Shown here one piece after another: positions 814 to 63,094 of a DNA stretch of 64,000 nt; positions within the stretch are counted from its first letter, which is position 1, and every line of letters starts with the position of its first letter. Location: assembly GCA_009914755.4 (NCBI GenBank), contig CP068257.2:40416001-40480000 (forward strand). Reading direction: 5' to 3'. The DNA comes from the human T2T-CHM13v2.0 reference genome, Homo sapiens. The notes beneath the pieces were generated by a model. The model was not told where the DNA came from, searched no databases, and saw nothing but the letters and a program-made list of their open reading frames with translations. The position numbers and the translations under genes are program-made.

Positions 814-1070
814 GGTCAAGCTGTTCTTTAATCAACCAGAAAGCGTAGGACACACATATTTCTTAGTTTTTTCCAAACTGAGATAGAGAAAGGAAGATGT
901 TTTTAAGTATGTATAAATTCGTATTCATTTTATGAAGAGAGAAGGAAAGGCCCGCTCTGCCAGTGCCCCATTACAGCCCATACACCCTGCAGGTGGCTGG
1001 GGCATGAGAAACGTTGGGTTGCCTCTGGGTGACAGGGGGCCTAGAGCCCTTGCATCTTGGCTGTGTGTGT
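814..1070 (+). repeat. Direct repeat R1, copy 1 (about 257 bp).
   Basis: It is about 93-95% identical to 2639-2895 (ggtcaagctgttctttaatcaaccagaaagcgtaggacacacatatttc...cccttgcatcttggctgtg). Both copies give ORFs that start MGCLWVTGGLEPLHLGC. Confidence 0.85.
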
Positions 1071-2072
1071 AGTGTAGGGTGTGTGGGGTGCGCGTATGTG
1101 TGGTGTGTGTATGTGTGTGTGGCGTGTGTGTGTGTTGTGTGTGTGCTATATGTTTGTGTGGGAAATGGGTGTGTGTGTGTAGGGTGTGTGTGTGGTGTGG
1201 AGTGTGTATGTGTGTGTGGGTATGTATGTGTGATGTGTGTATGGTGTGGGGTGTGTGTGGTGTAGGGTGTGTGTGTGTGGTGTGTGTGTAGGGTGTGTGT
1301 GTGTTGTGTGGTGTGTGTGTAGGGTGTGTATATATGGTGTGGGGTGTGTGTGGTGTGGGGTGTGTGTGTGTGGTGTGTGTGTAGGGTGTGTGTGTGTTGT
1401 GTGGTGTGTGTGTAGGGTGTGTATATATGGTGTGGGGTGTGTGTGGGGTGTGTGTGTGTATGTGTGGTGTGTGTGTGGTGTGTGGGTGTGTGTGGTGTGT
1501 GGTGCGTTCATGTGTATGTGTGGTGCATGTGTGTGAGGTGTGGTGTGTGTGGGTGTGTGATGTGGGGTGTGTCTGTGGTGTGTGTGTGTGGTGTGTGTGG
1601 TGTGTGTGTGGTGTGTGTGTAGGGTGTGTGTGTTGTGTGGGTTGTGTTGTGTGGGGTGTGTGTGCGGTATATGTGTGTGTATGTGTGGCATGTGTGTGGT
1701 TTTATTTGTGTGTGTGGTGTGTGTGTGTGGTGTGGGGTGTGTGTGTGGTGTGGAGTGTGTGGTTGTGGTGTGTGTGTAGGGTGTGTGTGTTGTGTGGGGT
1801 GTGTGTGTGTGGCATCTGTGTGGTTTTTTTGTGTGTGTGATGTGTGGTGTGTGTGTGGTGTGGGGGGTGTGTGTGGTGTATTTAGGGTGTGTGTGTTGTG
1901 TGGGGTGTGTTATGCGGGGGGTGTGGGGGTATATGTGTGTGTATGTGTGGCGTGTGTGTGGTTTTGTGTGTGCGATTATGGTGTGTGCATGTGTGTTTGT
2001 GGTGTGTGTGTGGTGTGATGTGGCATATGTTGTGTGTTGTGTGGTGTGTGTGTGGGGGGTGTGTCACACGTA
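1063..2072. repeat. About 1-kb compound GT-rich minisatellite or microsatellite with higher-order periodicity of roughly 87 bp.
   Basis: The tract is continuous TG/TGG/TGGGG. Blocks such as gtgtagggtgtgtgtgtgttgtgtggtgtgtgtgtagggtgtgtatatatggtgtggggtgtgtgtggtgtgg recur at about 1258, 1345 and 1620. The many CV-rich and HT-rich ORFs here are artefacts. Confidence 0.9.
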
Positions 2073-9676: not shown

Positions 9677-9958
<282 letters not shown>

Positions 9959-9960
9959 CA

Positions 9961-10190
<230 letters not shown>

Positions 10191-15706: not shown

Positions 15707-16120
15707 ATGTGACTGTTCTGTGGCCCTGATACGACTGTTCTGCGGCTCTGATGTGACTGCTCTGTGGCTCTGAAGTGACTCTTCTGTGGCTCTTATGTGT
15801 CTGTTCTGTGGCTCTGAAGTGACTCTTCTGCAGCTCCAATGCAACTCTTCTGTGGCCCTGATGTGACTGTTCTGCGGCTCTGATGCGACTGCTCTGTGGC
15901 CCCGATATGACTATTCTGCGGCCCTGATGCCACTCTTCTGCAGCTCTATGAGACTGTTCTGCAGCTCTATGAGACTGTTCTGCAGCTCTATGAGACTCTT
16001 CTGCAGCTCTATGAGACTGTTCTGCAGCTCTATGAGACTGTTCTGTGGCTCTGATGTGACTCTTCTGCAGCTCTGATGTAACTGTTCCGTGGCCCTGATC
16101 GACTGTTCTGTGGCACCCAC
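15707..16120. repeat. 21-bp minisatellite (VNTR) of about 20 units.
   Basis: There are near-perfect tandem units gcagctctatgagactgttct and variants ctgatgtgactgttctgtggct. The 223-aa minus-strand ORF (AAEQSHR repeats) is an artefact. Confidence 0.9.
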
Positions 16121-58147: not shown

Positions 58148-58309
58148 CCCTGAATCAGTCCGGGCAGTTCACGTCAAGACCCGGGGCCTGCCCCGCAGAG
58201 GGGCCTGAACCATCCACCTCCCCCTGCAGCTTGGACATCGACTGTCCTGGACTTGAGAAGTGCTGCCCCTGGTCAGGGGGGCGCTACTGCATGGCCCCTG
58301 CACCCCAAG
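58148..58309 (+). CDS. UMODL1: Coding exon 3: WAP-like four-disulfide-core module (PLNQSGQFTSRPGACPAEGPEPSTSPCSLDIDCPGLEKCCPWSGGRYCMAPAPQ).
   Basis: The acceptor (atcattttctcccag) ends at 58147 and a donor GTAGGC starts at 58310. The exon is phase 1-1 and in frame with exon 2. The motif D-x-D-C-P-G-x-x-K-C-C closely matches the elafin and SLPI WAP signature DTDCPGIKKCC. Confidence 0.55.
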
Positions 58310-59359: not shown

Positions 59360-59481
59360 CTCCAGAGAGGGACCCTGTGGGCTCCTGGTACAACGTCACC
59401 ATACTGGTGAAAATGGACTTCAAGGAACTCCAGCAAGTGGACCCCAGGCTCCTGAACCACATGCGCCTTCTGCATTCCTTG
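59360..59481 (+). CDS. UMODL1: Coding exon 4 (APERDPVGSWYNVTILVKMDFKELQQVDPRLLNHMRLLHSL).
   Basis: The acceptor (ttttcccttgtgtag) ends at 59359, so the exon enters in phase 1, consistent with exon 3. Using the GTAGGT donor at 59482 gives a phase-0 end that joins in frame to the next exon. An alternative donor GTGAGA at 59486 would break the frame. The exon contains an N-glycosylation sequon (NVT). Confidence 0.45.
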
Positions 59482-62362: not shown

Positions 62363-62542
62363 GTCACCAGCGCCCTGCAACCAATGGCCTCCACCGTCCA
62401 CCACCTGCACTCAGCCCCTGGGAACGCCTCCACCACAGTGTCGCGGCTGCTACTGGGCCTGCCACGGCCACTGCCTGTGGCTGACGTCTCCACCCTGCTG
62501 GGTGACATTGCGAAGCGTGTCTATGAAGTGATCAGCGTCCAG
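62363..62542 (+). CDS. UMODL1: Coding exon 5 (VTSALQPMASTVHHLHSAPGNASTTVSRLLLGLPRPLPVADVSTLLGDIAKRVYEVISVQ).
   Basis: The acceptor (ctgccttcacag) ends at 62362. The exon is an open 60-codon phase 0-0 unit ending at a GTGCAA donor at 62543, which is a weak donor. It carries the NAS sequon. It is continuous with exon 4 only if the 59482 donor is used. Confidence 0.4.
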
Positions 62543-63094
62543 GTGCAAGGTTGGGCTTCCCTCAATCCTCCCTCTGGGGAGGCTGCAGGGTGGTGCCTGA
62601 ACAGCCAAAATGCAAGGTGGACGCTAAAGCCAGACCAGTCCTTTGTCTTTTAAAGGAGGTTTAAGTTCAGGAGCAAAAGAATAACTGGTTCAAGTGTGTT
62701 CATCCCACAGGTGTGGGACCCATCTTCAGCTCACCCTGTAAATTCCAAGTCCCCAAGTGCAGACCTCTAGAACTTATTTTGCCCCCCATTTCCCGCCCCT
62801 CTCCTCTTCCCTCCATCTCTCCTCGGATCCCTCTGGCCTCCTGCCCCCTCGGCAGGCTTCTCCTTCCATCCTAGTGGACACTGGAGTGCAAATCCCAGAG
62901 CCACACACAAAGAACTTGTTTCTTCATTTCTTTGGTTTCCTAAATTTCCCTCTCGCCTCTTTCCCACCCTTGCCAAGGACATCCTTGTACTCCAAAGGCT
63001 CCTTCAGCACAATTTGTCTAAAGTTGAATTTGTATCTGGCAAAGCACATAGACGTGGCCTTGTTTCTGGAAGAAATTACCTATTCTTTGTTGTT

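What the first reader, a model, noticed from the sequence alone, without database searches (positions are those of the whole stretch)
58148..58309. WAP-like module with a reduced cysteine set
The exon has the diagnostic D-x-D-C-P-G-x-x-K-C-C core, which is almost identical to elafin DTDCPGIKKCC. Within the exon I count only six Cys, against the eight of a canonical four-disulfide core. The C-terminal CGxxC of a standard WAP is replaced by GGRYC, and one N-terminal Cys seems to be absent. Either the domain is a degenerate three-disulfide variant, or part of it is encoded elsewhere.
Basis: partly seen in the sequence, partly recalled or inferred. Interest (0 to 1): 0.5.

Follow-up and report, generated by a model that had tools for sequence, protein, structure and literature searches.

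The report
Six-cysteine WAP domain exon of UMODL1
This is the exon that encodes the WAP domain of the known gene UMODL1 (uromodulin-like 1, also called olfactorin); the domain lacks one of the usual four disulfide bonds, a loss shared by orthologues from fish to mammals, so the finding is correct but ordinary.

Summary
Window 58148-58309 (+) is a 162-nt exon bounded by AG and GT, in phase 1-1. It encodes a complete WAP domain: Pfam PF00095, 43 bits against a cutoff of 20.8, covering profile positions 1-41 of 41.

It has six cysteines. Alignments to elafin, omwaprin, anosmin-1, nawaprin and SLPI show that canonical C2 and C7 are the two missing, replaced by Ser and Gly. C2 and C7 are partners in one disulfide. 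In 414 other WAP domains they are present or absent together (odds ratio about 730).

The exon is exon 3 of UMODL1. Four neighbouring exons, including the EMI domain exon, lie in the window. The closest homologues are named "uromodulin-like 1". The cysteine numbering matches that published for human Q5DID0.

The six-cysteine pattern is invariant in the 32 aligned UMODL1-type sequences. The sequences that carry a source name come from manatee, vole, snakes, amphibians, sturgeon, bowfin and teleosts. It is therefore a stable three-disulfide variant, not decay, and no part of it is encoded elsewhere.

The lost bond is the one that pins the protease-binding loop in elafin. In UMODL1 that loop is short, acidic and proline-rich, variable in length and poorly conserved. 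I infer a binding or scaffold module rather than a canonical protease inhibitor.

The same six-cysteine variant is already described in whipworm WAP proteins. Interest is low.

The parts
58148..58309 (+). Exon 3 of UMODL1. It is 162 nt, in phase 1-1, and encodes the whole WAP module (residues 107-160 of the spliced product).
   Evidence: AG/GT boundaries; Pfam WAP at 43 bits covering 1-41/41; homologues named uromodulin-like 1.
58189..58191 (+). Cys121, canonical C1, within the RPGACP WAP motif.
   Evidence: Alignments to elafin and omwaprin; invariant in alignment A1; the paper pairs Cys146 with Cys121.
58213..58215 (+). Ser129 (TCC), at the position of canonical C2. No Cys here.
   Evidence: Ungapped alignment to omwaprin puts its C2 opposite this Ser; 39 of 45 UMODL1-type domains have no Cys in either the C1-C3 or the C6-C8 interval.
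58225..58227 (+). Cys133, canonical C3.
58243..58245 (+). Cys139, canonical C4 (D-x-D-C-P-G).
   Evidence: the paper pairs Cys154 with Cys139.
58261..58266 (+). Cys145 and Cys146, canonical C5 and C6 (K-C-C).
58276..58278 (+). Gly150 (GGG), at the position of canonical C7. No Cys here.
   Evidence: All five solved WAP structures have Cys opposite this Gly in the alignments.
58288..58290 (+). Cys154, canonical C8.
45629..45704 (+). UMODL1 exon 1 coding part: the ATG and the signal-peptide-like N-terminus MLRTSGLALLALVSAVGPSQASGFT.
   Evidence: tblastn of the recalled N-terminus at 100% identity; donor gtgagg.
50324..50566 (+). UMODL1 exon 2, encoding the EMI domain (six Cys of its own).
   Evidence: The Pfam EMI match is 17.6 bits, below the cutoff of 25. 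The sequence is conserved in manatee and vole uromodulin-like 1.
59360..59481 (+). UMODL1 exon 4, the start of a conserved stretch without cysteine that follows the WAP domain.
62363..62549 (+). UMODL1 exon 5, continuing the cysteine-free stretch.

Best explanation
The exon is exon 3 of the uromodulin-like 1 gene (UMODL1, olfactorin), most likely human or a close primate. It encodes, on one symmetric phase 1-1 exon, a complete WAP domain that has lost exactly one of the four canonical disulfides, C2-C7 (C2 to Ser129, C7 to Gly150). The other three remain: C1-C6 (121-146), C3-C5 (133-145) and C4-C8 (139-154). That part is shown. The loss is old and fixed, since it is shared by UMODL1 orthologues of mammals, reptiles, amphibians, sturgeon, bowfin and teleosts. 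What follows is inferred. In elafin and SLPI, C2 sits at P2 of the protease-binding loop, and its disulfide ties that loop to the beta-hairpin. In UMODL1 the loop is untethered, short (11 residues between C1 and C3), rich in Pro, Glu and Ser, variable in length and the least conserved part of the domain. The domain therefore probably does not act as a standard-mechanism serine-protease inhibitor. It more likely acts as a small, disulfide-braced spacer or binding module between the EMI domain and the rest of the ectodomain of this ZP-domain matrix protein. The N-terminal fragment of that protein has been reported to have anosmin-1-like, FGFR- and heparan-sulfate-dependent activity.
For: Identity and anatomy:
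- Pfam WAP above threshold, full length.
- Splice sites and phase.
- Five exon blocks matching the UMODL1 N-terminus.
- HMMER hits at residues ~85-175 of 850-1800 aa proteins that their sources name uromodulin-like 1, with the architecture WAP, EGF, SEA, fn3, EGF_CA, ZP.
- Cysteine numbering 121/139/146/154 identical to that published for human Q5DID0.

Which cysteines are missing:
- Ungapped omwaprin alignment and elafin alignment.
- Profile A1 against PDB hits only WAP structures, always with Gly opposite C7 and no Cys opposite C2.

Pairing of C2 with C7:
- Among 414 non-UMODL1 WAP domains, 135 lack both, 265 have both and 14 are discordant (odds ratio 730; collapsed by protein 46/63 against 10, odds ratio 121).
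- This agrees with the established elafin bond Cys23-Cys49, which I cite from my own knowledge.

Conservation:
- Six Cys invariant in 32 sequences.
- 39 of 45 UMODL1-type domains have no Cys in either interval, and none has one in both.
- Eight further fragments show the same pattern.

Fold:
- AF2 with the alignment gives pLDDT 69.6 overall and 73-81 in the core.
- The top six Foldseek hits are all WAP structures.

Function:
- The elafin inhibitory loop is Leu20-Leu26 with P1 at Ala24, and is stabilised by a disulfide (PMC10098471). Cys23 is the only Cys in that loop (sequence).
- The antiprotease cysteine spacing C1-6-C2-8-C3 occurs only in the C-terminal domain of SLPI and in elafin (PMC11408880).
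- Mean column identity in the UMODL1 loop is 0.39 against 0.67-0.72 elsewhere, and the C1-C3 spacing varies from 11 to 19.
- Anosmin-like activity of olfactorin is reported in PMC8874799.
Against: - The disulfide connectivity of the six cysteines was not measured, and I could not read it from model coordinates.
- The AF2 model has only moderate confidence, and the structural match scores are weak in absolute terms because the domain is small.
- The covariation sample came from hits to a query that itself lacks C2 and C7, so it is enriched for that type. Domains within one protein are also not independent.
- Non-inhibition is inferred, not tested. Whipworm six-cysteine WAP proteins are classed as SLPI-like inhibitors (PMC5012510), although their activity is unknown.
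- The role proposed in the literature for the WAP domain in FGFR binding rests on homology modelling and docking only.
- The species and the gene name rest partly on my recollection of the human sequence. That recollection is backed by the names of homologues and by the published numbering, not by a direct database match to human.
Confidence: 0.78

Rival explanations
1. The domain is still a working protease inhibitor. The freed, flexible loop acts as a binding loop for some protease, as is assumed for the six-cysteine SLPI-like proteins of whipworms.
For: It is a true WAP homologue with an intact core. Whipworms keep dozens of secreted six-cysteine WAP proteins that are classed as serine protease inhibitors, and these lack the same C2/C7 pair.
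Against: C2, which is P2 in elafin, and its tether are gone. The loop is acidic and proline-rich with no evident hydrophobic or basic P1. It is the least conserved and most length-variable segment. The cysteine spacing associated with antiprotease activity is absent. No inhibitory activity has been reported for UMODL1 in the papers I read.
Confidence: 0.12
2. The module is a decaying, functionless relic of a WAP domain that is drifting after losing two cysteines.
For: It has fewer cysteines than canonical WAPs. The exon is symmetric, so it could be skipped without breaking the reading frame.
Against: Six Cys, P11, G12, D29 and K37 are invariant, and the DxDCPGxxKCC core and the N-x-S sequon are strongly conserved, in 32 aligned sequences. 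The named orthologues run from teleosts to mammals. The Pfam score is twice the threshold.
Confidence: 0.03
3. The two missing cysteines are supplied by neighbouring exons, so the domain is split, or they were missed through a positional error and all eight are in fact present.
For: None was found. The upstream exon is rich in cysteine.
Against: The full WAP profile 1-41/41 lies inside the exon. Ser and Gly occupy the C2 and C7 columns in alignments to five solved structures. The upstream exon has six Cys, an even number, and belongs to the EMI domain. The downstream exons have none. No second WAP-like exon exists in the window.
Confidence: 0.02
4. The six cysteines pair in a non-canonical way, giving a fold isomer rather than a WAP fold minus one bond.
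For: Connectivity was not measured here. The AF2 confidence is only moderate.
Against: The retained cysteines are exactly the three canonical pairs. C2 and C7 are gained and lost together across the family. The predicted fold matches elafin only. The published homology model keeps 121-146 and 139-154.
Confidence: 0.05

Closest known systems
UMODL1 / olfactorin (uromodulin-like 1; human UniProt Q5DID0), WAP domain
   Same: This is that domain. The exon order is signal peptide, EMI, WAP. The closest homologues are named uromodulin-like 1. The cysteine numbering is identical to the published human numbering.
   Different: Nothing differs. [quoted passage not shown]
Elafin / trappin-2 and the C-terminal domain of SLPI (inhibitory WAP four-disulfide core domains; PDB 1FLE, 6ATU, 2Z7F)
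   Same: Best sequence and fold matches. They share the KPGxCP start, the C-x-x-D-x-D-C-P-G-x-x-K-C-C core and the beta-hairpin.
   Different: Those have eight Cys. Their C2 lies at P2 of a 15-residue inhibitory loop tied down by the C2-C7 bond, with C1-6-C2-8-C3 spacing. UMODL1 lacks C2 and C7 and has an 11-residue acidic, proline-rich loop.
Omwaprin (snake waprin, PDB 3NGG)
   Same: Same length, and it aligns without any gap over 42 residues.
   Different: Omwaprin has Cys where UMODL1 has Ser129 and Gly150. It is a free-standing venom peptide, not a module of a large matrix protein.
Six-cysteine WAP domains of trichocephalid nematodes (SLPI-like proteins of Trichuris and Trichinella; Foth et al. 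2014)
   Same: The same two cysteines, C2 and C7, are absent, and the CC-x7-C spacing is the same. These proteins are the top-scoring non-orthologous hits to the exon.
   Different: They are tandem arrays of up to 9-12 domains in secreted parasite proteins, an unrelated architecture. The shared loss is most simply explained as convergent. The paper called the pattern an 'apparently novel trichocephalid adaptation', which the vertebrate UMODL1 domain shows is not exclusive to that group.
Anosmin-1 (ANOS1) WAP domain (PDB 1ZLG)
   Same: A WAP domain followed by FN3 domains in an extracellular matrix protein of the olfactory system. An anosmin-like chemoattractant effect has been reported for olfactorin. 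The profile match has E = 1e-3.
   Different: The anosmin-1 WAP domain keeps all eight cysteines (alignment). The functional analogy at the level of the domain rests on docking only.

Membership tests
WAP domain (Pfam PF00095 / 'four-disulfide core') | Profile HMM score above the curated gathering threshold over the full domain | tested here: met
   43 bits against 20.8, E = 5.6e-11, profile 1-41/41. The same domain passes in manatee, snake and sturgeon orthologues.
WAP domain (Pfam PF00095 / 'four-disulfide core') | Eight conserved cysteines forming four disulfides | tested here: not met
   Only six Cys are present. C2 is replaced by Ser and C7 by Gly. It is therefore a homologue of the WAP family but not literally a four-disulfide core.
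WAP domain (Pfam PF00095 / 'four-disulfide core') | Core signature C-x-x-[DN]-x-x-C-x5-C-C (PROSITE PS00317, recalled from memory) and an N-terminal K/R-x-G-x-C-P motif | tested here: met
   C133-S-L-D-I-D-C139-PGLEK-C145-C146 and R-P-G-A-C121-P, read directly from the translation. These positions are invariant or nearly invariant in alignment A1.
WAP domain (Pfam PF00095 / 'four-disulfide core') | WAP fold: a central beta-hairpin braced to the outer segments | tested here: met
Inhibitory WAP domains (elafin / SLPI-C type, MEROPS I17) | Constrained binding loop with C2 at P2, C1-6-C2-8-C3 spacing, tethered by the C2-C7 disulfide | tested here: not met
   C2 is absent. The C1-C3 spacing is 11 in human and 11-19 in orthologues. 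The loop is PAEGPEPSTSP. The criteria come from PMC10098471 and PMC11408880.
Inhibitory WAP domains (elafin / SLPI-C type, MEROPS I17) | Measured inhibition of a serine protease | not testable with these tools
   This needs recombinant protein and enzyme assays.
UMODL1 (uromodulin-like 1) orthologue group | Closest homologues are UMODL1 proteins, with the WAP domain at the same position after an EMI domain | tested here: met
   Single-stretch hits at residues ~85-175 of proteins named uromodulin-like 1 in 19 of the 20 clusters looked up; the twentieth, and two MetaClust-only entries, carry a UROL1 label or no name. N-termini are colinear with the spliced window product.
UMODL1 (uromodulin-like 1) orthologue group | Full architecture EMI-WAP-(EGF/SEA/FN3)-EGF_CA-ZP-TM | tested here: inconclusive
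   The window ends after exon 5, so only the signal peptide, EMI, WAP and the following stretch can be seen. The full architecture is seen in orthologues.
Six-cysteine WAP variant (described in trichocephalid nematodes) | Exactly six Cys, lacking the C2/C7 pair, with the core spacing kept | tested here: met
   UMODL1 and the Trichuris, Trichinella and Soboliphyme domains fall in the same class, with no Cys between C1 and C3 or between C6 and C8. Common descent of the variant was not shown.

The most novel reading that the evidence does not exclude
The UMODL1 WAP domain would represent a vertebrate-wide, more than 400-million-year-old subclass of three-disulfide WAP domains. It would have arisen independently of the whipworm six-cysteine WAPs. 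Loss of the loop-tethering C2-C7 bond would have turned an inhibitor scaffold into a non-inhibitory ligand-binding module, for example an anosmin-like co-factor for FGFR and heparan sulfate. That would make concerted C2/C7 loss a general, recurrent route by which WAP domains change function.
Probability: 0.3. Interest if true: 0.35.

Novelty: already known. Interest (0 to 1): 0.17.

Why it matters
It matters little beyond careful annotation. The gene and its WAP domain are already annotated and studied. Three modest points emerge. First, the UMODL1 WAP is a clean three-disulfide variant that lacks exactly the C2-C7 pair and has been fixed since before teleosts and tetrapods diverged. This argues against assuming protease-inhibitor activity for it, and it should be taken into account when modelling it on anosmin-1. 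Second, the six-cysteine WAP pattern published as an apparently novel whipworm adaptation also exists in a conserved vertebrate protein. Third, the strong co-occurrence of C2 and C7 across hundreds of WAP domains recovers the disulfide pairing from sequence alone.

Tried and rejected
- The word-indexed protein search with the exon peptide found nothing. With alignment A1 it returned only 18 short fragments. That index appears to miss the long vertebrate proteins, which the exhaustive HMMER search did find.
- The single-sequence AF2 model (pLDDT 64) gave a meaningless Foldseek result. I replaced it with the model built from the alignment.
- Literature searches for an explicit statement of C1-C6/C2-C7/C3-C5/C4-C8 connectivity in WAP domains failed. 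The pairing therefore rests on my own knowledge of elafin (Cys23-Cys49), on the covariation count, and on the two pairs given in PMC8874799.
- I considered and rejected a second WAP exon in the window, coding on the opposite strand or in other frames, an Rfam RNA anywhere in the window, and protein domains in the large ORFs upstream.
- I could not read Cys-Cys distances from the model, because coordinates are not exposed.

Full report
**1. The observation**

Window 58148-58309 on the + strand is preceded by a polypyrimidine tract and AG (attttctcccag|CC) and followed by a consensus donor (CCCAAG|gtaggc). It is 162 nt long, and both the incoming and outgoing phase are 1.

Read from 58150, it encodes LNQSGQFTSRPGACPAEGPEPSTSPCSLDIDCPGLEKCCPWSGGRYCMAPAPQ. 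The other five frames carry stops or nothing recognisable.

The motif DIDCPGLEKCC is present and matches elafin's DTDCPGIKKCC at 8 of 11 positions. There are exactly six cysteines.

- Pfam's WAP model (PF00095) matches at E = 5.6e-11 and 43 bits against a gathering score of 20.8, and the match covers the whole profile, 1-41 of 41.
- tblastn of the peptide against the whole window finds only this site (E = 6e-34; the next best is 0.45).

**2. Which cysteines are missing**

phmmer against all PDB sequences finds elafin (1FLE, 6ATU), omwaprin (3NGG), anosmin-1 and nawaprin.

The omwaprin alignment has no gaps over 42 residues. It places omwaprin's second Cys opposite Ser (codon 58213-58215, residue 129 of the spliced product) and its seventh Cys opposite Gly (58276-58278, residue 150). 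In the elafin alignment, the four residues C-A-M-L, which contain C2, fall in a gap, and S-C-G aligns to S-G-G.

A profile built from 32 orthologous domains (A1) hits only WAP structures in the PDB:

| Structure | E-value |
|---|---|
| elafin | 6e-8 |
| omwaprin | 6e-6 |
| anosmin-1 | 1e-3 |
| nawaprin | 2e-3 |
| SLPI | 6e-3 |

Where the alignment was printed (elafin, omwaprin, anosmin-1, nawaprin), the structure's C7 faces the family's Gly, and its C2 faces an insertion or a column without Cys.

The retained cysteines are therefore C1, C3, C4, C5, C6 and C8, at residues 121, 133, 139, 145, 146 and 154.

**3. C2 and C7 are partners**

From established knowledge of elafin (disulfides 16-45, 23-49, 32-44, 38-53), the WAP pairing is C1-C6, C2-C7, C3-C5 and C4-C8. 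I could not find this written out in the paper library, so I tested it indirectly.

I built an HMM from canonical domains and aligned 496 WAP domains from the 132 proteins returned by the exhaustive HMMER search. Among the 414 non-UMODL1 domains that keep the six core cysteines, the split was as follows:

| State | Domains |
|---|---|
| No Cys in either the C1-C3 or the C6-C8 interval | 135 |
| Cys in both intervals | 265 |
| Discordant | 14 |

- At the domain level the odds ratio is 730 (Fisher p = 2e-90).
- Counting each pattern once per protein gives 46 and 63 against 10 discordant, an odds ratio of 121.

The sample is biased towards sequences that resemble the query, and domains in one protein are related. 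Even so, the signal is what a lost disulfide pair predicts.

A published homology model of human olfactorin independently keeps Cys146-Cys121 and Cys154-Cys139, that is C6-C1 and C8-C4 (PMC8874799).

**4. What gene it is**

My recollection of the human UMODL1 N-terminus aligns to the window in five blocks at about 100% identity. All five have canonical splice sites and compatible phases:

| Exon | Coordinates | Content |
|---|---|---|
| 1 | 45629-45704 | ATG and signal-like peptide |
| 2 | 50324-50566 | EMI domain |
| 3 | 58148-58309 | WAP domain |
| 4 | 59360-59481 | cysteine-free stretch |
| 5 | 62363-62549 | cysteine-free stretch |

A recollection is only a lead, so I looked for independent support.

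- The exhaustive search of 1.84 billion representatives returned 132 hits. About 45 of them are single-stretch matches, many of them at residues ~85-175 of proteins 850-1800 aa long.
- Their sources name them "uromodulin-like 1" in manatee, snow vole, two newts, a caecilian, four frogs, corn snake, sturgeon, two shads, mackerel, a remora, a mormyrid and Lepidogalaxias. The bowfin entry is labelled "UROL1 protein".
- Their N-termini are colinear with the spliced window product.
- The three full-length orthologues I scanned (manatee, corn snake, sturgeon) carry WAP, EGF, SEA, fn3, EGF_CA and ZP domains.
- The cysteine positions in my spliced product (121, 139, 146, 154) are exactly those published for human Q5DID0.
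- Alu-like repeats in the window fit a primate origin.

**5. Conservation of the reduced set**

In alignment A1 (32 sequences) the six cysteines are invariant, as are P11, G12, D29 and K37.

Of the 45 UMODL1-type domains, 39 have no Cys in either interval. Six have a lineage-specific extra Cys on one side only, and none has both. Eight further fragments, from cobra, pike, arowana, cichlids and others, show the same pattern.

The named mammals are manatee and vole, plus the window itself. With all the sampled reptile, amphibian and ray-finned fish orthologues in the same state, six cysteines is the ancestral condition for bony vertebrates. This is a fixed three-disulfide variant, not decay.

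The alternative that part of the domain lies on another exon is excluded:

- the full profile lies inside the exon;
- the upstream exon is the EMI domain, with an even set of six cysteines of its own;
- the downstream exons contain no cysteine.

**6. Fold**

The single-sequence AF2 model was poor and uninformative.

With A1 as the alignment, pLDDT rose to 69.6 overall and to 73-81 in the core, with a beta-hairpin at residues 37-41 and 44-48 of the exon peptide.

- Foldseek's top six PDB matches are elafin, omwaprin and half-SLPI, with TM 0.55-0.67.

The scores are small because the domain is small, but the specificity is clear.

**7. How it probably works**

The following is shown. The domain is a complete WAP module that lacks only the C2-C7 bond, and it sits between the EMI domain and a conserved cysteine-free stretch at the N-terminus of a ZP-domain membrane and matrix protein.

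The following is inferred.

- In elafin the inhibitory region runs from Leu20 (P5) to Leu26 (P2'), with P1 at Ala24, and the loop is stabilised by a disulfide (PMC10098471). The only Cys in that loop is Cys23, which is C2 (sequence).
- A review notes that the antiprotease-associated spacing C1-6-C2-8-C3 occurs only in the C-terminal domain of SLPI and in elafin among human WAP domains (PMC11408880).
- UMODL1 has no C2 and an 11-residue loop, PAEGPEPSTSP, with no evident P1.
- That loop is the least conserved segment: mean column identity is 0.39, against 0.72 for the N-terminal part and 0.67 for the core. Its length varies from 11 to 19 residues.

I therefore consider a standard-mechanism inhibitor unlikely, about 0.12. 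I favour a disulfide-braced spacer or binding module.

Experimental work reports that olfactorin-conditioned medium has an anosmin-1-like chemoattractant effect that depends on FGFR and heparan sulfate, and that an N-terminal fragment containing the WAP and FN3 domains is secreted. The specific role of the WAP domain there rests on docking only.

**8. Comparison with what is known, and novelty**

The gene and the domain are already annotated and studied.

A six-cysteine WAP variant has also been described. Foth et al. 2014 reported that nearly all WAP domains of Trichuris and Trichinella have exactly six cysteines and called this an apparently novel trichocephalid adaptation (PMC5012510). My classification shows that those nematode domains lack the same C2/C7 pair. 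The same class also appears sporadically in turtle papilin-like and barnacle proteins.

The papers I read on UMODL1 do not state that its WAP domain is this variant, and the WFDC review does not mention UMODL1 at all.

The only new elements are small:

- the precise assignment, C2 to Ser and C7 to Gly;
- the conservation of that state across bony vertebrates;
- the fact that the "trichocephalid" pattern is not exclusive to that group.

**Verdict:** the finding is correct and well read by the first stage, but it is an ordinary, already known feature. Interest is about 0.17.

Noticed in passing
window 52433-52835: A 50-bp minisatellite with 8.1 copies that are 97% identical (consensus unit CAACACCTCCATCACCAACAGAAACCAGGCGGGGCCAGCTGACCCCAGAG). 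It lies in intron 2 of the UMODL1 gene model, between the EMI and WAP exons. The high identity between copies suggests a young or actively homogenised VNTR.
   Followed up: no
window 1062-2064: About 1 kb of impure (TG)n / TGTGTGGTG microsatellite. It accounts for the extreme GC skew (+0.42) and AT skew (-0.43) of the first 2 kb.
   Followed up: partly
window 15707-16114: A 22-bp minisatellite, 18.8 copies at 80% match (ATGTGACTGTTCTGCGGCTCTG), in the region upstream of UMODL1. The 223-aa ORF that overlaps it has no Pfam match.
   Followed up: partly
window 59360-59481 and 62363-62549 (spliced residues 161-263): The roughly 100-residue stretch after the WAP domain has no cysteine and no Pfam match at E <= 0.01. 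It is nevertheless clearly conserved from shad to manatee (WYN[VA]T..VK.D...L...D..LLNHMRLLHS.VT.AL). It looks like an unannotated, possibly SEA-like, module.
   Followed up: no
proteins P0002, P0004, P0006, P0007, P0008, P0012 (Trichuris, Trichinella, Soboliphyme): Every WAP domain classified in these clade I nematode proteins (5-12 per protein) lacks the same C2/C7 pair as UMODL1. The whipworm genome paper called the six-cysteine pattern an apparently novel trichocephalid adaptation, but a conserved vertebrate protein shares it.
   Followed up: partly
P0085 and P0089 (Alosa uromodulin-like 1), residues 85-141: The shad orthologues carry two extra cysteines in the WAP exon region (LNCS... and ...GSHCASQPQC...). 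The total is back to eight, but at non-canonical positions and still without C7. This may be a lineage-specific new disulfide.
   Followed up: no
window 1-45000: No Rfam family reaches its gathering score anywhere in the window. None of the seven ORFs of 169-223 aa that I tested has a Pfam domain. An Alu-like dimer lies at 9747-10173. The 45 kb upstream of UMODL1 exon 1 looks like repeat-bearing intergenic DNA.
   Followed up: partly
window 62450-62460 (exon 5): The window encodes ...LHSAPGNAS..., whereas my recollection of the human protein had ...LHSAGGNAS.... This is either a memory error or a polymorphism or species difference. I did not resolve it.
   Followed up: no
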